DNA from: a virus
Taxonomy: Duplodnaviria; Heunggongvirae; Uroviricota; Caudoviricetes
Length of the DNA stretch: 64,000 nucleotides
Direction: 5' to 3' (one strand)
Virus record (IMG/VR): IMGVR_UViG_3300035208_008116
Span: 9,539-73,538 of that record
A program made the position numbers and the translations under genes. The notes under the pieces were generated by a model that had not been told where the DNA came from, did no database searches, and was given only the letters and a program-made list of their open reading frames with translations. Positions within the stretch are counted from its first letter, which is position 1. Each line of letters starts with the position of its first letter. Positions 3,110-56,171 of the stretch are shown here, in pieces.

Positions 3110-3216
3110 CTAAAAAGACGTCATCAACCTTACATTTTGATTCTTTTTTCATCGCGTCGGAGGCAGAATTTGCCATAACAAACTTCCTAACAATATATCT
3201 TTTTTGAGGTAATTTT

Positions 3217-5358
3217 TTAGCCATTTTCGGTTGTTGATGTTCCATTAATTTTAGTGACGATTATTTTATGGTCGAAGAGGTCCTTAATGCTTCTTAGGTG
3301 GGAGATGCAGATGGTCTGTCTAAAATTTCTCCTTAGTTTTTCAAGGACATTAGAAAAATCTTCTGTTGATTCTTCATCAAGTCCAATAAAGAGCTCATCA
3401 AAAATTCTAAATCCAACTTTCTGAAGAGTTGCTAATGCTTCAGCGATAGCTACGGTGATCTTTAATTTTTGACCCCCAGAATAGTTATCGAAATCAAATT
3501 CCTCCCCTACTTCATTATAGATATTAATAAAGAGACCTTCAAGCATTGTTTCCCCATTATTGGCTTGTCTTTGTGTTTCAAGACGGATCCTAAAATCAGA
3601 AAGTTCTCCTAGGATTTCATTAATCTTCTCTTCTAAACGGGGAATAAGATAGTCAACAACAACTGTTTTTACTCCTTTCGGGGAGAAGGCTTCTTTTATG
3701 AGAGAGAGAACCTCGACTTTTTCAGTGACCTCAAGGAGTTCCTGTCTTTTTGTCGCAATTGACTTTTGGCAAATTTCAATAGTATTTTGAGCTTGAACCG
3801 CCACGGCAACTTCCCCTTGAAGAATAGCCAATTGAGATGTAAGTTTCTCCTTTTGTTCTATTAAATTTTTTTCCTTCAAGACATCATAACTTCCTCGGTA
3901 TTCATTAAGTTTTGCCTCAAGCGCGATAATTGTACTTTGGCAATCAGAGGCAGAAACGTTGACCTCTGCGCAATTGGTCATCAAAGAACTTAACTCCCCC
4001 TCATAAGTGGGAAGTTGTTCCCTTTGGCTGAGAATCATTGCTTTCTGGCTTTCTAGATTAGGGATATTCTTAACCAACCCTTTTAGCGTGTTATACCTCT
4101 CAAGGGCCCCCTCGGCGAGAGTGACCTCAGGGCCTAAGGCACTTAGGGCTTCTTCGTAGACCTTCTTTTGTCGTTCTTGTTCTAGCTTTAATTCATTTTT
4201 TTGTTTTATCTGTCCCTCAAGAAACCCCATCTGAGAACTTATTGACTTTGTCGATTTGTAGGAGTGATTACAAACGGGGCAAGTTTCCTCGATTCCCCCA
4301 TCAGTCATCAACTTAATCAATTGTTTATTGATTTCTCGAATTTCTGAGTCATAATCATAATTATTAACCCTGAAATCAGACATAAGAGAACTCCGTTTCA
4401 GTTTTTGTTGATAGATTTTTTCCTGGGTTTCTTCGAGTTCCTTTAGCTCATCTTGATATCCAATTAGTCCTAGTAATTGATGATCGACATTATTAAGATC
4501 TAAACTCTTAATCGTCTCAATCTTGGCTTTAATCGTATCAATTTGATCCGAATAAGTGCGTTGTTGGTACTGAAAGGTCTTTAAAGCAGAAGTCTCGGCG
4601 GCAAGTCCTCTTTCAATGGAATTAACTTCCTCCTCTTTTGCCTTCACTATTAACAGTGAACTATCAACCTCTTGAAGGGTTTTTTGGAGTAAAATCTCTT
4701 GTTCCTTCTTTTGTTGAATGTCCTTTACAAGGGGCTCTGTTTCTTTGATTTGGTGTTCAAGTGACTCAATTTGGGTAACCGCCCGCACTCTTCGCTCCCC
4801 CTCGAGGCTTAATTGGTCGCGGGCGCGTCCATAGTAAAGATCATAGTCCTCAGCACTGATTACTTCGAGGAGGAGGTCTTTCCTTTTATTAGCTGGCTGT
4901 CGGACGAAACTCTCAATGTTGTCTTGCGGATAGGCGACGCTGTTGATGAAGAGCGAGTAGGACGCCCTAACGATCTTGGTTTCGATAAAGTCTTGGATTT
5001 CTTTAAGACCTGTAATCTGGAGAGGAGTGTATTTAATTCCATCATTGGATTCCTCAAGGCTAAGGACATGCTTTCCTTTATCGCTAATACTTCTTTCAAT
5101 TCGGTATTGGACAACTTTGTCATCGGAATCATCTGAAAGGTCAAGAATAACTTTAGCCACTTTTTTGCCTCTTTTGACGAGATTACGGTTGTCTGAACGG
5201 CCTTTGCCATAGAGAGCCCAGATAATCGCTTCTGGGATCGTTGATTTTCCCGAACCGCTGCGTCCATCAATGAGGAACTCCGAATTACTTTCGAACTCGA
5301 TTGTCGTTTTTTCATGTGATAGGAAATTATTAATTTGTAATTTTTTAAGTATTATCAT
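3217..5358 (-). CDS. sbcC: SbcC/Rad50-family recombination ATPase
   Basis: N-terminal Walker A GRSGSGKST, long coiled-coil, CPVC zinc hook, signature YSGGQK, Walker B/D-loop IFDELFIGLDEE. Confidence 0.75.
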   Translation of the reverse strand: MIILKKLQINNFLSHEKTTIEFESNSEFLIDGRSGSGKSTIPEAIIWALYGKGRSDNRNLVKRGKKVAKVILDLSDDSDDKVVQYRIERSISDKGKHVLSLEESNDGIKYTPLQITGLKEIQDFIETKIVRASYSLFINSVAYPQDNIESFVRQPANKRKDLLLEVISAEDYDLYYGRARDQLSLEGERRVRAVTQIESLEHQIKETEPLVKDIQQKKEQEILLQKTLQEVDSSLLIVKAKEEEVNSIERGLAAETSALKTFQYQQRTYSDQIDTIKAKIETIKSLDLNNVDHQLLGLIGYQDELKELEETQEKIYQQKLKRSSLMSDFRVNNYDYDSEIREINKQLIKLMTDGGIEETCPVCNHSYKSTKSISSQMGFLEGQIKQKNELKLEQERQKKVYEEALSALGPEVTLAEGALERYNTLKGLVKNIPNLESQKAMILSQREQLPTYEGELSSLMTNCAEVNVSASDCQSTIIALEAKLNEYRGSYDVLKEKNLIEQKEKLTSQLAILQGEVAVAVQAQNTIEICQKSIATKRQELLEVTEKVEVLSLIKEAFSPKGVKTVVVDYLIPRLEEKINEILGELSDFRIRLETQRQANNGETMLEGLFINIYNEVGEEFDFDNYSGGQKLKITVAIAEALATLQKVGFRIFDELFIGLDEESTEDFSNVLEKLRRNFRQTICISHLRSIKDLFDHKIIVTKINGTSTTENG

Positions 5359-50779: not shown

Positions 50780-51013
50780 ATGAAAAAAGGATTTACGTTA
50801 ATTGAGTTGATAGTGGCTATCGCGATTATTATTATCCTGACTGATATCCTCGTGATCGCAGCCAAGAAGACCTTTAGGGAGGAGGAAGACCAGTTAAAAA
50901 TGACTGATAAGGAATATTGTATCAAGTACTATAGTGATTACCGGTTGGAGAATCTGCCTGCTCGATGTCTTAAGACCTTTGGTGTAACCTCGGTGGTTAA
51001 TCAGGTCGACTAA
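50780..51013 (+). CDS. type IV pilin/pseudopilin-like protein
   Basis: MKKGFTLIELIVAIAII prepilin N-terminal cleavage/methylation signature. Confidence 0.55.
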   Translation: MKKGFTLIELIVAIAIIIILTDILVIAAKKTFREEEDQLKMTDKEYCIKYYSDYRLENLPARCLKTFGVTSVVNQVD

Positions 51014-52060: not shown

Positions 52061-52333
52061 ATACTGGCAATACTGGAAAGGGATGTGTCTGTCGAGCTGT
52101 AACAAGGTCAGTCAATGTTCCAAGTTTTCGGAAGGAGCTAACCTTGATGCTTTCAAAAAGAAACAGGCTCACGACGCTACTCATCGCGTGGGAAGGCCGA
52201 TGCCGAACCCCGACTAGCGTGTCCATCAAGGAAGTGACCGAGGCCAAGGACGATTTCAGAAAGGAGTTTGGCTGGGCGAAACTAACCGAGTTAATCAACG
52301 AAGTGACAATGGCCTGTGCTAAGGAGACGAGCG

Positions 52334-52459
52334 ATGGCTACTTGTCCAAGGTGCGGAAAAGAAGTGGATACCTATCAGACTGCGTGCGACTGCGGTCAGT
52401 TGTGGCCAGGAAGAACACCAGACGGCAACACCGTTAAACCTCCAAAGCTCCGCCAGTAG
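52334..52459 (+). CDS. small zinc-ribbon protein MATCPRCGKE...CDCG (41 aa) with AAGGAG SD
   Basis: canonical SD 7 nt upstream, unusual for this genome. Confidence 0.3.
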   Translation: MATCPRCGKEVDTYQTACDCGQLWPGRTPDGNTVKPPKLRQ

Positions 52460-52487
52460 CTCCTTAAAAGGAAAACTGGCAACATCT

Positions 52488-52570
52488 GCGTTGTTGGTGG
52501 AGTGGTCATCACGGACGACTGTAAATCGTCTGCCATTGCGGCAAGGGGAGTTCGATTCTCTCACAACGCA
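52488..52570 (+). tRNA. tRNA-Tyr (anticodon GTA), long variable arm
   Basis: manual fold: perfect 7-bp acceptor GCGTTGT/ACAACGC, D-arm, anticodon loop CUGUAAA, 15-nt variable arm, T-arm GGGAG-TTCGATT-CTCTC. Confidence 0.6.
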
Positions 52571-52751
52571 CACTCTCTTTGGAGATACTAGTGTCCTCGC
52601 CAGTCACTAGGCCGGAAGGTGGGTATATCCCAATGGCGTAATTATGACAAATAAATTAGAAAGAAAAATTCAGTTTGGTAAATATACCAAGAGGGATTAT
52701 AGAGAAGTGAGGAGATTATTAAAAAATAAGTGGAAGGAAGAGGAGTTAGAG

Positions 52752-52798
52752 TTATCCACAGTTCCCTACTTGCCAAGTAAGAAAGATGGGAGTATAAT
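52752..52798 (+). promoter_or_regulatory. class-I promoter P6 with no ORF downstream for ~600 bp
   Basis: TTATCCACA 52752-52760, TTGCCA 52770-52775, TATAAT 52793-52798. Confidence 0.65.
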
Positions 52799-52805
52799 AG
52801 AATAA

Positions 52806-53413
52806 GTACGTTGAAAATTGAATAGTAATCGAAGGCGTCGACTTGGTGGCAATGAATGAGATACTTCAATAAACTTTGACTTTATTACAAAAGACTCGTT
52901 CCCTTTTCCCCAAATCAATGCCTTGGATTACAAAATGAGGTTGTTACAGTTCAGCTACTTCAATAACAATTGATTATTATAGCTTCACAGCTAATTACTT
53001 TGGACTCGTCTTGTGAGAGACCTGTTCTATTGTCTTCTGTTAAAGGAAGAATAATTGCGGGTAGCCCCGTACGTCTCTTCGTCTCGTAAGATGGAGGTAA
53101 GGGGATCCTCGAGTCCTCCTACTATTGTACCTTTTCATCAACTTTTGGTTTGGTGGAAAGCACCAACAAATTAAAACAAACTTTGCCGCGATTGAGGATG
53201 AATTTCCTAAAAGCAAAAATAGGAAAAAATCTTAGCGGCTAAACTGGACTAACTATCGCCTCATTTTGTAACCTAAGGTCGAGTGGCAACGAATCAGATA
53301 CTTCAAAAATAATTGGATTTTTTTGTTCTGGGGTTACCCCGGAAAAACTACCTGGTTCAATTTATCCCTCGACCTTAGTTCGCAATTATAAGTCAAAGTT
53401 ATAATAAAATAAG
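52806..53413 (+). ncRNA. candidate structured noncoding RNA(s)/long leader upstream of Ro60 gene
   Basis: no ORF >30 codons; nested long-range complementarities 52872-80/53392-400, 52928-40/53259-71, 53272-83/53366-78; ~35-bp direct repeats at 52832-52869 and 53273-53306; driven by P6. Confidence 0.35.
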
Positions 53414-54820
53414 ATGAAATTTAATACGAAAGAGTCCACTCGGACTACTAACTTAGCAGGAGGTGTTGCTTTTTCAATTTCTCCAGAAATTGAGTTGCTG
53501 CACGCGGTCTTAACGACCTTCCTCGATGATAAGTATTACGAGTCAAAAGAGGATCGGATTGCTCGAATCAAGAAGTTAATCTCCTTGAATAAACCAGAGT
53601 TCGTCGCCAAATTAGCCTGTGTGGCTCGTCTTGAGTTTAATCTTCGGTCAGTGACTCACCTTCTTTTGGGTGAACTGGCTAAGACTCATAAGGGAGATAG
53701 CCTAGTGAAGGATGCGATTGTTAAGTGTACTGTTCGTCCTGATGACCTGACTGAACTCGCGGCTTATGTTGGGACGCCTTTACCTAAGCAACTTAAGAGA
53801 GGGGTGCGTAATGGTCTCCTAAAATTTAATCGTTATCAATTAGCCAAGTATAAGGGTGAAGGTAATAAGATCTCTCTCGTTGACTTATTTAATCTTTGTC
53901 ACCCTAAAGTTAAGCACGCCTCTGAAGAGCAAAAGCAAGCTTGGGCAGATCTTATTAAGGGCGACTTAAAATCCTTTGACACATGGGAAACTGAAATCTC
54001 AAATTCAACTGCTGAAGACAAGAGCGAGAAGTGGGCACAACTTGTTCAAACGGGCAAGATGGGTTACATGGCTTTGTTAAGGAATCTCAACAACCTTATT
54101 AAAAATAATGTTGATGAGGAGACTATCGGTTGTGCGATTAAGAAGTTGACTGATCCTGAGGAAGTTAAGAAGTCAAAGCAAATGCCCTTCCGTTTTGTGA
54201 CTGCTTACGATAATGTAAAAGGGAATCGTAAATTGACTGATGCTATTTCTGTGGCGATGGATATGGCGGTCTCTAATACTCCTAAGCTACCGGGGAAGAC
54301 TCTCGTCGCGGTAGACGTCTCTGGCTCGATGAGGGGAGATCCCATTAGGAAGGCGGCTATCTTTGGGGCCACCTTAACTCAAGCTAATCCTGATACTGAT
54401 TTGATTCTCTATGACACCCGAGTGAAGGAAGAGGTTGTTGGCAGCCGTCTCCCTGTTATTGATTTGGCTAAGAAGATTGAAAATGATGCTATGGGTGGAG
54501 GGACTGAAACTTCTTTAGTCTTTAAGTATGCGATTGAAAAGAAGAAAGTCTATGATCGGATTATTATTATTTCCGATAACGAGAGCTGGGCAGAAGGTTG
54601 GGGTTATGGAACTAAGTCTATTCAAGGATGGTATGGTCAATATAAAAAGATTTCTGATCCATTTGTCTACGCGATCGATATTCAGGGATATGGAACTAAG
54701 GATATTGCAGGAGGGAAAGTTTTTCACCTCTGTGGTTGGTCTGATCGCCTCCTTGATTATATCGGTAAGATGGAGGAGGGTGATGCCTTGGTCGATTATA
54801 TTAAAAATTATAAAATTTAA
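53414..54820 (+). CDS. Ro60/Rsr-like protein (TROVE domain + vWA domain)
   Basis: N-terminal TROVE-like segment (GG...LxxFLxDxYYE...LFxxxLA pattern), C-terminal vWA MIDAS VAVDVSGSM. Confidence 0.6.
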   Translation: MKFNTKESTRTTNLAGGVAFSISPEIELLHAVLTTFLDDKYYESKEDRIARIKKLISLNKPEFVAKLACVARLEFNLRSVTHLLLGELAKTHKGDSLVKDAIVKCTVRPDDLTELAAYVGTPLPKQLKRGVRNGLLKFNRYQLAKYKGEGNKISLVDLFNLCHPKVKHASEEQKQAWADLIKGDLKSFDTWETEISNSTAEDKSEKWAQLVQTGKMGYMALLRNLNNLIKNNVDEETIGCAIKKLTDPEEVKKSKQMPFRFVTAYDNVKGNRKLTDAISVAMDMAVSNTPKLPGKTLVAVDVSGSMRGDPIRKAAIFGATLTQANPDTDLILYDTRVKEEVVGSRLPVIDLAKKIENDAMGGGTETSLVFKYAIEKKKVYDRIIIISDNESWAEGWGYGTKSIQGWYGQYKKISDPFVYAIDIQGYGTKDIAGGKVFHLCGWSDRLLDYIGKMEEGDALVDYIKNYKI

Positions 54821-54826
54821 ATTATT

Positions 54827-55090
54827 ATGGAAAACAATAAAGAACTTCAGATCCCAAGAGCAATGAAGGAACTTGATTGTCAGATTAATATTCTAGGGAA
54901 TGATTTGTTGGAACTTCGGAAAAGACTTGAACTTGTTTTGGTTAATCGTCCGGTGCCTGAATCTGAGAAGACTGTTTCCCCTATACCCCCATCAGGGACC
55001 CCGTTAGTTGCGGCAATTGATGAGGAGATAAAAAAAGTTAAAGATATGGAGGTTTTGGTAAGAGTAATTTTTGAGACGCTTGAAATCTAA
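54827..55090 (+). CDS. hypothetical protein
   Basis: 87-aa ORF. Confidence 0.3.
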   Translation: MENNKELQIPRAMKELDCQINILGNDLLELRKRLELVLVNRPVPESEKTVSPIPPSGTPLVAAIDEEIKKVKDMEVLVRVIFETLEI

Positions 55091-55442
55091 TATGTGGTAT
55101 AGAATGTTCCATCCAATCAAAAATCTTTATCGGCGCTATCGTTATGGTGGGGGTTGTTGTGATGTCTTCAGTTTGGATTATTATCTGGCAAAGAAGATCC
55201 TTCCTTCCCTAAAATTGTTTAGAGATAAGACTAAAGAGGATTTTGGTGGATACCCTTGCGGTTTTGATACCCCAGAGGAGTGGACGAAGGTCCTGGATGA
55301 AATGATCTGGTCATTCCAATATCTAGTTGATGGAGAAGAAACAGGAAACCCCTTTGACCTTGAGGTTATGGGAGTGAATGCCGAGAGAGAGCAAAAGGGA
55401 TTTGAATTATTTGGGAAGCACTTTAGGAATCTCTGGCTATAA
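55071..55442 (+). CDS. hypothetical protein
   Basis: 123-aa ORF. Confidence 0.3.
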   Translation: MRRLKSNMWYRMFHPIKNLYRRYRYGGGCCDVFSLDYYLAKKILPSLKLFRDKTKEDFGGYPCGFDTPEEWTKVLDEMIWSFQYLVDGEETGNPFDLEVMGVNAEREQKGFELFGKHFRNLWL

Positions 55443-55572
55443 AAAACGTCTCGTGTCGTGGTCCAACACGGGGGGGTGGAAGACTCGAGAAGCAACTCGT
55501 AAAAACATAGGCTTGTCACTGGGGTCGATCCAACCCTATCGCCAAAAAGCAACCTTGGTAGGTGACGGCCAT

Positions 55573-55640
55573 GCCCCTCCCCCGACGGGGGGATAACTTA
55601 TCGGCAGATAAGGGAAGTTGTTCAAACCAACAGGGGGGCT
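55573..55640 (+). ncRNA. tRNA-like cloverleaf element (non-canonical D and anticodon loops) within GC-rich hairpin cluster 55450-55645
   Basis: 7-bp acceptor-like stem GCCCCTC/GGGGGGC, hairpins CCCC-gac-GGGG, CTTATC-ggca-GATAAG, GTTG-TTCAAAC-CAAC (T-loop-like). Confidence 0.3.
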
Positions 55641-55771
55641 CATGTTAGGACAGATTTTTTCATTCATTGGTTGGGGGATCCTTTGTTTCTGTTGGGTAGT
55701 TTTTTATATCCTTTATCTTCCCTTTGCTTTGATAATTATTCTTGGGATATTAATATTTAATAAAAATTAAC

Positions 55772-55948
55772 ATGGGAGGAAAAAGTCATGGAGAAAAAAT
55801 AAAAAAGTTCTTGGGTCTACATTCTCAGGGTAGAAAGAAGTTTGCTGCCGAGAAGGCTCTCCTAAGGGCAGAAAAGAAGCAAGAAAAAGAAATAAGGTCT
55901 GGGCGCAAAGGTCATAAGCCGAAACCTCGGGAGATCTTAAAAAAGTAA
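55772..55948 (+). CDS. small basic protein (58 aa, K/R-rich)
   Basis: ATG ORF; stop abuts next start. Confidence 0.3.
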   Translation: MGGKSHGEKIKKFLGLHSQGRKKFAAEKALLRAEKKQEKEIRSGRKGHKPKPREILKK

Positions 55949-55949
55949 A

Positions 55950-56171
55950 ATGAAAAGAAAAGAAGATTGGGAATTATTAAAGAATAAGAATTGGGTCGCC
56001 TTTGCGACGGCGATGACGATGGTACAACTTGTTCTATCATCCTTCTCTCAGATGGTCTTATTCTATCTTCTTGTTGGTTTCCTTGCGATGTTGATTGAAC
56101 AGGAGTGGAGGCGTCCATGGATAATCCTTCTTTGGCTCCCCTGGGGGTTTAAAATTTGTAATCAGGAGTAA
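55950..56171 (+). CDS. small membrane protein
   Basis: two hydrophobic helices. Confidence 0.3.
   Translation: MKRKEDWELLKNKNWVAFATAMTMVQLVLSSFSQMVLFYLLVGFLAMLIEQEWRRPWIILLWLPWGFKICNQE

What the first reader, a model, noticed from the sequence alone, without database searches (positions are those of the whole stretch)
52752..55645. Phage Ro60 (TROVE-vWA) homolog flanked by promoter-driven ORF-free structured regions: candidate Ro60/Y-RNA-like RNP module
53414..54820 encodes a protein whose N-terminus follows the TROVE pattern of Ro60/Rsr and whose C-terminus has a vWA MIDAS motif (VAVDVSGSM). In bacteria and mycobacteriophages, Ro60 orthologs are encoded beside their Y-RNA ligands, some of which (YrlA type) carry tRNA-like modules. 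Directly upstream, consensus promoter P6 fires into 608 bp with no ORF. This region shows nested long-range complementarity (9-, 13- and 11-bp perfect pairings spanning 300-530 nt) and terminal ~35-bp direct repeats, as expected for one or more structured RNAs. About 600 bp downstream lies a GC-rich (atypical for this genome) hairpin cluster containing a 68-nt cloverleaf with a 7-bp acceptor-like stem and a TTCAAAC T-loop, but non-canonical D and anticodon loops (a tRNA-like element rather than a tRNA). Together these suggest a phage-borne Ro60 with its own RNA partner(s).
Basis: partly seen in the sequence, partly recalled or inferred. Interest (0 to 1): 0.72.

Follow-up and report, generated by a model that had tools for sequence, protein, structure and literature searches.

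The report
Phage Ro60 with three Y-RNAs
This phage carries a gene for the ring-shaped RNA-binding protein Ro60 preceded by three tandem genes for its probable small RNA partners (Y RNAs); the arrangement is real and well conserved, but it is already known from bacteria and other phages.

Summary
The upstream half of the finding holds. ORF 53414-54820 is a Ro60/Rsr homolog by Pfam, by sequence match to a solved phage Ro60, and by predicted fold. The gene-free stretch between a near-consensus promoter (52770-52798) and the gene holds three tandem stem-closed RNA units on the gene's strand: Y1 (52826-52930), Y2 (52933-53266, unusually large) and Y3 (53273-53378).

A covariance model built from small units in related loci finds Y1 and Y3 (E about 1e-10) and nothing else in the 64-kb window. 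It gives 172 hits in 497 kb of TROVE-gene loci, 171 on the gene's strand and nearly all just upstream. It gives 3 weak hits in 883 kb of control phage DNA. Both variable helices show heavy compensatory change.

In relatives one unit per array often carries a tRNA-like module and scores as a sub-threshold Rfam YrlA. The window's units lack that module.

The downstream "cloverleaf" is not supported as part of the system. ARAGORN calls it, the Rfam tRNA model does not, its folding is marginal, and no other Ro60 locus has it.

Multiple Y RNAs upstream of Ro60 are published for bacteria, mycobacteriophages and Thermus phage phiLo. This is a new member of a known kind.

The parts
52770..52798 (+). 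Sigma-70-type promoter-like site (TTGCCA, 17-nt spacer, TATAAT), 28 nt upstream of the first RNA unit.
   Evidence: 11 of 12 matches, the best site in 52300-56000; a site with >=10/12 lies within about 120 nt upstream of the array in 21% of 57 related loci, against 3.5% of random windows.
52826..52930 (+). Y1: Y-RNA-like unit. The conserved core is 52841-52915; the basal stem is extended by linkers F (52825-35) and F' (52921-31).
   Evidence: Covariance model R1: 46.6 bits, E 1.3e-10 in a 497-kb search; alignment. Fold z -4.9, 0 of 200 shuffles as good.
52933..53266 (+). Y2: giant unit. It has the same terminal architecture: 5' AUGAGG-UUGUUA-CAGUUCAG-CUACUUC and 3' CUGGACUA-ACUAUCG-CCUCAU. Its apex is about 290 nt of several hairpins.
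   Evidence: A half-motif plus pairing scan finds 52935-53264, with 0 hits in 439 kb of shuffled loci. With filters off, R1 recognises only the 5' half (13.3 bits) because the 3' half is too far away. Lower stem 6/6 and upper helix 7/8 pairs, read directly from the sequence. Fold z -4.5. A 20-nt closing helix is reported (I1).
53273..53378 (+). Y3: Y-RNA-like unit. The conserved core is 53278-53373; the apex holds the hairpin CUGGGGUUACCCCGG.
   Evidence: R1: 46.9 bits, E 1e-10; alignment. Fold z -4.2, 0 of 200 shuffles as good.
53414..54820 (+). Ro60/Rsr homolog, 468 aa: TROVE HEAT-repeat ring plus a vWA domain with MIDAS motif DxSxS (D301, S303, S305).
   Evidence: Pfam TROVE 2.8e-25 and vWA_Ro60 8.9e-8. 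PHROG 850 'RNA-binding protein' 5.9e-44. phmmer 5e-21 over residues 9-458 to Thermus phage phiLo Ro60, 9L5Y/9KOP. AlphaFold2 model with pLDDT 81; the top 13 Foldseek PDB hits are all Ro60, TM 0.63-0.74.
52488..52571 (+). tRNA-Tyr(GTA) gene, same strand, 255 nt upstream of Y1. This is context only; no co-transcription is shown.
   Evidence: ARAGORN and Rfam tRNA at 53.2 bits. Of 57 related Ro60 loci scanned, 12 also have tRNA genes or clusters within 2.5 kb.
55549..55641 (+). It is not shown to belong to the Ro60 module and its function is unresolved.
   Evidence: ARAGORN call with mismatches and 0 calls in shuffles. No Rfam tRNA, tRNA-Sec or YrlA hit. No R1 hit. Fold z -1.4 to -2.1. No similar DNA in other Ro60 loci.

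Best explanation
The region is a phage Ro60 ribonucleoprotein cassette: a promoter, three tandem Y-RNA-like genes (Y1, Y2, Y3) and the Ro60 gene, all on one strand.

**Anatomy of one unit.** Each unit is a long hairpin closed by its 5' and 3' ends. From base to apex it has:
- a variable basal stem of at least 6 bp;
- a sequence-conserved, partly non-Watson-Crick internal motif, 5' U-(G/U)-G-(U/C)-(A/G)-A opposite 3' U-U-(A/U)-U-C-(C/G/U);
- a variable 8-bp helix that always ends in a G-C pair;
- an almost invariant (A/U)UACUUC;
- a free-form apex.

**Inferred steps.**
- The promoter makes one precursor that runs through the three units into the Ro60 mRNA. No terminator lies between them.
- The units are cut out. 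The extended basal duplexes built from the shared inverted linkers F and F' are plausible endonuclease substrates.
- Ro60 binds the conserved terminal module of each unit. The helix end plus AUAC occupies the position of the published Rsr-binding motif of YrlA.
- The variable apex then acts as the adaptor that brings Ro60 to another factor. By analogy with Deinococcus, Salmonella and Thermus phage phiLo, this would be a host 3'-5' exoribonuclease such as PNPase, so that structured RNAs are handled differently during infection.

**Shown:** protein identity, RNA family membership, conserved structure, and linkage and strand. **Inferred:** transcription, processing, binding and the effector.
For: **Protein**
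- Searches identify it as Ro60.

**RNA family**
- The seed alignment of 14 small units already shows 13 of 19 pairs with changes on both sides. Covariation score is 0.56, against 0.18 shuffled and at most 0.17 slid.
- On 143 distinct hits, 85% of cells are paired and 17 of 19 pairs have changes on both sides (736 cells). The score is 0.66, against 0.18 shuffled and at most 0.16 slid. The upper helix is 91% paired with all 8 pairs covarying.

**Specificity and linkage**
- 172 hits fall in 497 kb of TROVE loci. 171 are on the gene's strand, nearly all within about 700 nt upstream. Only Y1 and Y3 are hit in the 64-kb window.
- 3 weak hits fall in 883 kb of control viral loci that had been pre-selected for the 5' motif.
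- 74 hits, all on the gene's strand, lie in loci around TROVE genes in bacterial genome bins.

**Homology to YrlA**
- The roughly 130-nt units in 10 of 10 tested relatives give Rfam YrlA hits of 32-52 bits, most of them full-length.
- The alignment places our upper helix on YrlA positions 2-7/105-110 and AUACUU on YrlA AUGCuu. The published Rsr-binding motif GNCGAAN0-1G lies near the YrlA 5' end (PMC4201824), and I place it on these model positions by reading the Rfam consensus.

**Trans-acting RNAs rather than a leader**
- In a few loci the units lie downstream of the gene: L169/L171, L183 and L217.

**Precedents**
- M. smegmatis YrlA and YrlB lie upstream of rsr and are processed from one precursor. 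D. radiodurans Yrn1 and Yrn2 are made with a tRNA in one precursor (PMC4201824).
- phiLo Ro60 binds two upstream-encoded Y-like RNAs and host PNPase (PMC12135203).

**Promoter**
-.
Against: - There are no expression data, so stable small RNAs, their ends and Ro60 binding are all unproven.
- Rfam's Y_RNA and YrlA models find nothing in the window, even at E<=10.
- The published motif GNCGAAN0-1G is not literally present. CGAA occurs only in Y3.
- None of the three units has the tRNA-like module that Chen et al. found in at least one Y RNA per species.
- Y2, at 330 nt, is far outside the usual 80-130 nt. It was placed by a custom scan, not by the covariance model.
- The invariance of UACUUC is partly circular, because the seeds were chosen with it and the model rewards it.
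- The A3 alignment was fitted to the model, which inflates pairing percentages. The slid controls argue this is not the main effect.
Confidence: 0.82

Rival explanations
1. The three structured units are cis-acting parts of the Ro60 mRNA leader, for example Ro60 autoregulation sites or mRNA stabilisers, and are never released as separate RNAs.
For: They lie between the only good promoter and the start codon, and no intrinsic terminator is predicted on the + strand between them. The last unit ends 36 nt before the ATG. There are no expression data.
Against: In several related loci the same units lie downstream of the gene (L169/L171, L183, L217). Units in relatives are YrlA homologs, and YrlA-type RNAs upstream of rsr are processed out of a precursor and bound in trans (PMC4201824). 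Copy number varies from 1 to 5 per locus, which is easier to explain for gene products than for a leader. The two roles are not mutually exclusive.
Confidence: 0.1
2. The downstream GC-rich cloverleaf (55549-55641) is the tRNA-like RNA partner or substrate of this Ro60. It would replace the tRNA-like module missing from the upstream units.
For: ARAGORN calls it, and calls nothing in 663 kb of local shuffles or 1.28 Mb of window shuffles. It has a canonical T-loop sequence, TTCAAAC. The upstream array lacks a tRNA-like unit. At least one relative (L176 1768-1887) carries a canonical-order tRNA-like apex inside a Y stem.
Against: It has no Y-type terminal stem or motifs, and R1 with filters off gives nothing there. 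The Rfam tRNA, tRNA-Sec and YrlA models give nothing, even on 131 nt. The acceptor stem has two A.G mismatches and the D arm is poor. Fold z is only -1.4 to -2.1. It is separated from Ro60 by two ORFs. Neither it nor those ORFs occur at any other Ro60 locus. Several relatives also have arrays without a detected tRNA-like unit (L123, L130, L139, L148, L168, L185), so nothing needs replacing.
Confidence: 0.07
3. The repeats act at the DNA level, as iterons, a replication origin or protein-binding sites, and the RNA folds are incidental.
For: There are direct and inverted repeats in a non-coding region.
Against: Hits are strand-specific: 171 of 172, and 74 of 74. Helices are kept through compensatory changes while their sequence drifts, and G-U pairs are selectively kept (GU in 116 of 143 sequences at one pair). 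Only RNA-level selection explains this.
Confidence: 0.01

Closest known systems
Thermus phage phiLo Ro60 with Yrl1 and Yrl2 (PMC12135203; PDB 9KOP, 9L5Y)
   Same: Both are phage-encoded Ro60 genes with two or more Y-RNA-like genes in the non-coding region directly upstream. It is the best solved relative of the window protein (phmmer 5e-21 over residues 9-458; Foldseek TM 0.71). In phiLo, binding of the RNAs and of host PNPase was shown experimentally.
   Different: Protein identity is only about 24%. The phiLo RNAs were defined by a CGAA motif. Model R1 finds nothing in the phiLo upstream region, and only weak hits just after the gene. The window has three units, one of 330 nt.
Bacterial YrlA / YrlB (Rfam RF02553; Chen et al. 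2014, PMC4201824)
   Same: These RNAs are encoded next to rsr, often several per locus and processed from one precursor. A terminal stem carries the Ro-binding site. The helix and the following AUGCUU/AUACUU align between the families. Relatives of the window locus have units with the permuted T-arm / acceptor-like / D-arm module. The small units resemble the 'long hairpin with small loop' class (YrlB, Yrn2).
   Different: The window units have no tRNA-like module and no Rfam hit. The literal GNCGAAN0-1G motif is absent. This clade adds a conserved lower internal motif (UGGYAA/UUAUCC) outside the Rfam model, and an invariant UACUUC.
Metazoan Y RNAs with Ro60 (1YVP)
   Same: The protein fold is the same (TM 0.71-0.74). 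The RNA logic is the same: a terminal stem with a conserved, imperfectly paired protein-binding site, plus a variable effector loop.
   Different: There is no sequence similarity to the GGUCCGA/UUGACU helix. Transcription is from a bacterial-type promoter, in tandem with the protein gene.

Membership tests
Ro60 / Rsr (TROVE + vWA ring protein) | TROVE (HEAT-repeat) domain | tested here: met
   Pfam PF05731 at E 2.8e-25, 89.8 bits against a cut-off of 23. Full-length phmmer match to phiLo Ro60.
Ro60 / Rsr (TROVE + vWA ring protein) | C-terminal vWA domain with a MIDAS motif (DxSxS) | tested here: met
   PF25045 vWA_Ro60 at 32.7 bits against a cut-off of 27.7. D301, S303 and S305 are invariant in 13 homologs.
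Ro60 / Rsr (TROVE + vWA ring protein) | Overall fold matching solved Ro60 rings | tested here: met
   AlphaFold2 model with pLDDT 81 and pTM 0.61. The top 13 Foldseek PDB hits are all Ro60/Rsr, E 3e-16 to 5e-11, TM 0.63-0.74. This is a predicted structure, not a solved one.
Ro60 / Rsr (TROVE + vWA ring protein) | Binds Y RNAs and misfolded RNAs | not testable with these tools
   Needs EMSA or RIP.
Y RNA (Ro60-associated small RNA, bacterial/phage type) | Encoded within about 2 kb of the Ro60 gene | tested here: met
   Y1-Y3 end 36 nt before the start codon on the same strand. The same linkage holds in about 90 loci.
Y RNA (Ro60-associated small RNA, bacterial/phage type) | 5' and 3' ends form a long stem, interrupted by a conserved internal loop or bulge, below a variable loop | tested here: met
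   Folds. Covariation: 17 of 19 pairs with changes on both sides. The central motif is conserved in sequence but often unpaired.
Y RNA (Ro60-associated small RNA, bacterial/phage type) | Conserved Ro-binding motif (GGUCCGA in animals; GNCGAAN0-1G or CGAA in bacteria and phiLo) | tested here: inconclusive
   The literal motif is absent. CGAA occurs only in Y3 (53293-96). By my reading of the Rfam YrlA consensus in the alignment, the corresponding position in this clade carries ..G(A/U)UACUUC.
Y RNA (Ro60-associated small RNA, bacterial/phage type) | Size about 80-130 nt | tested here: inconclusive
   Y1 is 75-105 nt and Y3 is 96-106 nt, which fit. Y2 is about 330 nt and does not. Relatives range from 57 to about 280 nt.
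Y RNA (Ro60-associated small RNA, bacterial/phage type) | Accumulates as a discrete RNA bound by Ro60 | not testable with these tools
   No transcript data are available for this uncultured phage.
YrlA (Rfam RF02553) | tRNA-like module: T arm, acceptor-like stem-loop, D arm | tested here: not met
   No YrlA or tRNA hit in 52806-53413 at gathering score or at E<=10. It is present in relatives at 32-52 bits against a gathering score of 69.
tRNA (for the downstream element 55549-55641) | Cloverleaf scoring as tRNA | tested here: inconclusive
   ARAGORN calls it, with two A.G mismatches in the acceptor stem and a weak D arm, and calls nothing in shuffles. Rfam tRNA gives no hit at E<=10 on 131 nt.

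The most novel reading that the evidence does not exclude
The most novel reading left open is that this clade of Y RNAs is a modular 'socket'. The terminal Ro60-binding stem, ending in the invariant UACUUC, would accept interchangeable apical cargo. The cargoes seen are a small loop, a permuted YrlA-type tRNA mimic, a complete canonical-order tRNA-like domain (L176 1768-1887, where UACUUC forms the 5' acceptor strand), and, in this window, a roughly 290-nt multi-hairpin domain (Y2). On this reading Y2 is a new kind of large Ro60-tethered scaffold or decoy with its own target. The frequent adjacency to phage tRNA clusters would mean the system acts on tRNA supply or tRNA-targeting defences during infection.
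Probability: 0.15. Interest if true: 0.6.

Novelty: new member of a known kind. Interest (0 to 1): 0.4.

Why it matters
- It gives a firm annotation to 1.2 kb of otherwise unannotated phage sequence.
- It adds an uncultured phage (contigs of at least 102 kb) to the viruses that carry their own Ro60 ribonucleoprotein.
- At family level, Rfam's YrlA and Y_RNA models miss these RNAs. A simple 63-position model recovers about 250 units next to Ro60 genes in phages and in bacterial genome bins.
- The model shows that tandem arrays of 1-5 units are usual, and it explains some spurious 'tRNA' annotations in cultured Xanthomonas phages.
- It pinpoints the conserved nucleotides (UGGYAA/UUAUCC and UACUUC) that binding experiments should target.
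- It does not change the current picture of what Ro60 and Y RNAs are.

Tried and rejected
- **Rfam on the window** (gathering score, then E<=10 on 52300-56000 and on 55530-55660). It found only tRNA-Tyr and noise, with no Y_RNA, YrlA or tRNA at the candidate RNAs.
- **Exact-pattern scan of viral contigs** with GTGGCAAN{6,12}TACTTCAA. It returned mostly chance matches. I reused them as a negative control.
- **My first regex and pairing heuristic** for delimiting units was too crude. The covariance model replaced it.
- **Relatives of the window phage**, sought through neighbouring proteins (the 123-aa ORF and the 964-aa protein) to test conservation of the downstream element and of the Y2 apex. 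None was found in viral contigs.
- **The three public contigs carrying the same Ro60** are 100% identical over 7.4 kb, so they offer no population variation.
- **BLAST of the downstream element, the Y2 apex and the flanking ORFs** against all Ro60 loci found nothing.
- **R1 with filters off** cannot span Y2, because the 3' half is too far away.
- **DNA-level repeats, or a degenerate tRNA array**, as the explanation for the upstream region. I rejected both on strand specificity, G-U-preserving covariation and the absence of tRNA hits.
- **The 2020 Annual Review on bacterial Ro60** could not be read, as it is not held.
Full report
**What is in the window**

The 64-kb window is phage DNA. It encodes a large terminase, primase/helicase, SbcCD and a tail protein. 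Identical sequence occurs on public contigs of 54-102 kb. On the + strand, in order, lie:
- a real tRNA-Tyr at 52488-52571;
- a promoter-like site TTGCCA-17-TATAAT at 52770-52798;
- about 600 nt with no credible ORF;
- a 468-aa ORF at 53414-54820, followed by two small ORFs;
- a GC-rich hairpin cluster at about 55450-55645.

**The protein**

The ORF matches Pfam TROVE (E 2.8e-25) and vWA_Ro60, and PHROG 850. By sequence it matches the solved Ro60 of Thermus phage phiLo over residues 9-458 (E 5e-21). It matches human Ro60 and Deinococcus Rsr more weakly. An AlphaFold2 model (pLDDT 81) has Ro60 structures as its 13 best Foldseek hits in the PDB, with TM 0.63-0.74. The MIDAS residues D301, S303 and S305 are invariant among homologs. 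The protein half of the finding is confirmed.

**The upstream RNA region**

The 614 nt fold with z -6.1 and split into three stem-closed domains.

The explanation came from a relative, L001, whose Ro60 is 47% identical. Its 630-nt ORF-free upstream region carries four units with the same motifs. One of them holds a permuted tRNA-like module that Rfam scores as a partial YrlA.

Homologs at 60-71% identity are abundant, mostly on phage contigs of about 40 kb. I collected about 90 Ro60 loci from viral and metagenome collections. I then aligned 14 small units of about 63 nt and wrote a structure for them:
- a 6-bp basal stem;
- a conserved internal motif;
- an 8-bp upper helix;
- a single-stranded (A/U)UACUUC;
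- a variable apex.

On the seed alignment 13 of 19 pairs already change on both sides.

**Results with covariance model R1** (built)
- It finds 172 matches in 497 kb of Ro60 loci. 171 are on the gene's strand, almost all within about 700 nt upstream. A few lie just downstream.
- In the window it finds exactly two: 52841-52915 and 53278-53373, each with E about 1e-10.
- On 143 distinct matches, 85% of cells pair and 17 of 19 pairs show changes on both sides. The covariation score is 0.66, against 0.18 for shuffles and at most 0.16 for slid partners.
- The internal motif is conserved in sequence but often unpaired, as expected for a protein-binding site.
- In 883 kb of viral loci pre-selected for the 5' motif but lacking Ro60, there are only 3 weak hits.

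**The third unit, Y2**

Y2 is too long for the model. With filters off, R1 sees only its 5' half. A half-motif plus pairing scan places it at 52935-53264. That scan returns nothing in 439 kb of shuffled sequence, and it also finds units of 190-280 nt in other loci. Y2's basal stem pairs 6/6 and its upper helix 7/8, and it carries UACUUC and CUAUCG.

The units share inverted linkers in the order F-Y1-F'-Y2-F-Y3-F' (coordinates in note 3). Neighbouring units therefore compete for the same extended basal duplex.

**Relation to known families**
- In 10 of 10 relatives tested, the roughly 130-nt unit gives an Rfam YrlA hit of 32-52 bits, most of them full-length. All are below the gathering score of 69.
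- The alignment puts our upper helix on YrlA positions 2-7/105-110, and AUACUU on YrlA's AUGCuu. Reading the Rfam consensus, I place the published putative Rsr-binding motif GNCGAAN0-1G (PMC4201824), which lies near the YrlA 5' end, on these positions.
- The family is therefore a divergent YrlA-type terminal module, with or without the tRNA mimic.
- The same model also hits next to TROVE genes in bacterial genome bins of several phyla, so the family is not phage-specific. It finds five tandem units in cultured Xanthomonas phage 10KY502B.
- The literature already describes several Y RNAs upstream of rsr that are processed from one precursor, sometimes together with a tRNA, and YrlA RNAs in most of the Ro60-encoding phage genomes searched (PMC4201824). 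It also describes a phage Ro60 that binds two upstream-encoded Y-like RNAs and host PNPase (PMC12135203).

The window's cassette is thus a new member of a known kind. Its particular features are the absence of a tRNA-like unit and the giant Y2. Several relatives also show no detected tRNA-like unit.

**The downstream element**

ARAGORN calls a 93-nt tRNA-Arg(CCG) with a long variable arm. It never does so in shuffles. Against this:
- the Rfam tRNA model gives nothing, even on 131 nt;
- folding is only marginally better than chance;
- R1 gives nothing there;
- neither the element nor its flanking ORFs recur at any other Ro60 locus;
- I found no relatives of this phage that would allow a conservation test.

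It may be a degenerate tRNA-derived element or part of a terminator or processing region. It is not shown to belong to the Ro60 module.

**Mechanism**

Shown:
- a Ro60 gene;
- three same-strand RNA units of a family whose structure is under selection;
- tight linkage of that family to Ro60 genes.

Inferred:
- The 52770-52798 promoter drives one precursor through Y1-Y3 into the Ro60 mRNA. Promoter-like sites are enriched upstream of the arrays, 21% against 3.5%.
- The units are excised and Ro60 binds the conserved terminal module.
- The variable apex recruits a partner, most likely a host 3'-5' exoribonuclease, by analogy with the systems that have been studied experimentally.

The main rival, a purely cis-acting leader, is weakened by loci where the units lie downstream of the gene, and by homology to RNAs known to act in trans.

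**Verdict**

Novelty is 'new member of a known kind', and interest is moderate (0.4).

Noticed in passing
L176:1768-1887: One Y-type unit has as its apex a complete canonical-order tRNA-like domain (D arm, anticodon arm, T arm). Rfam tRNA scores it at 49 bits and ARAGORN calls it Leu-UAA. The family's invariant UACUUC serves as the 5' acceptor strand, pairing with GAAG. This differs from the permuted YrlA design found in other units of the same family.
   Followed up: partly
L220:1350-1937 (Xanthomonas phage 10KY502B, OQ622092.1): There are five tandem Y-type units upstream of the TROVE gene in a cultured 43-kb phage. The record's 'tRNA-Thr' (locus 1810-1877) lies inside one unit, and ARAGORN's tRNA-Glu (1589-1658) lies inside another. 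Both are probably miscalled tRNA-like modules.
   Followed up: partly
L218:2993-3056 and 3184-3261 (Thermus phage phiLo, MH673673.1): Model R1 finds nothing in the upstream region where Yrl1 and Yrl2 were reported. It gives weak hits (16.3 and 13.9 bits; E 0.009 and 0.05) just after the Ro60 stop codon, overlapping the annotated CDS phiLo_25. One of them carries GUACUUC.
   Followed up: no
window:52825-52835, 52921-52931, 53268-53278, 53374-53384: Adjacent units share inverted linker sequences (GUAAUCGAAGG / CCUUGGAUUAC / GUAACCUAAGG / CCUUAGUUCGC). Extended basal duplexes of Y1 and Y3, or alternatively of Y2, can form, but not all at once. This could be a processing signal or a folding switch.
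   Followed up: partly
window:52218-52825: Gene callers on identical contigs call nothing between 52217 and 53414, so the gene-free stretch is about 1.2 kb, not 608 nt. Besides tRNA-Tyr it holds uncalled small ORFs. One is a Cys-rich 47-aa ORF (52316-52459; CPRCG...CDCG, zinc-ribbon-like). Another is a charged 53-aa ORF (52644-52805) whose 3' end contains the promoter.
   Followed up: no
L223, L222, L267, L270 (genome bins): The closest Ro60 homolog in genome bins (61% identity, with two Y units beside it) is on a 2.4-kb contig binned as Candidatus Saccharibacteria. Three further Saccharimonadales bins, one a complete 1.2-Mb genome, have homologs at 36-39%. Together with a pilin-like N-methyl protein (50780-51013), this hints at a Saccharibacteria (CPR) host.
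   Followed up: no
L159:3970-6232; L183:4299-6374; L176:60-1562; L213: In 12 of 57 loci scanned, the Ro60/Y-RNA cassette abuts phage tRNA genes or clusters, mostly on the same strand. These reach up to 16 tRNAs plus a tmRNA in L159.
   Followed up: partly
window:48978-50582: The phage encodes a full-length GroEL-type chaperonin (534 aa, Cpn60_TCP1), 2.8 kb upstream of the Ro60 cassette.
   Followed up: no
L032:553-617: A good Y-type unit (22 bits; GGAG-UGGCAA-...-UUACUUC...UUUUUCU-CCGU) lies on a 5.5-kb viral contig with no TROVE gene in the sequence held. It may be an orphan Y RNA, or the gene may lie beyond the contig end.
   Followed up: no
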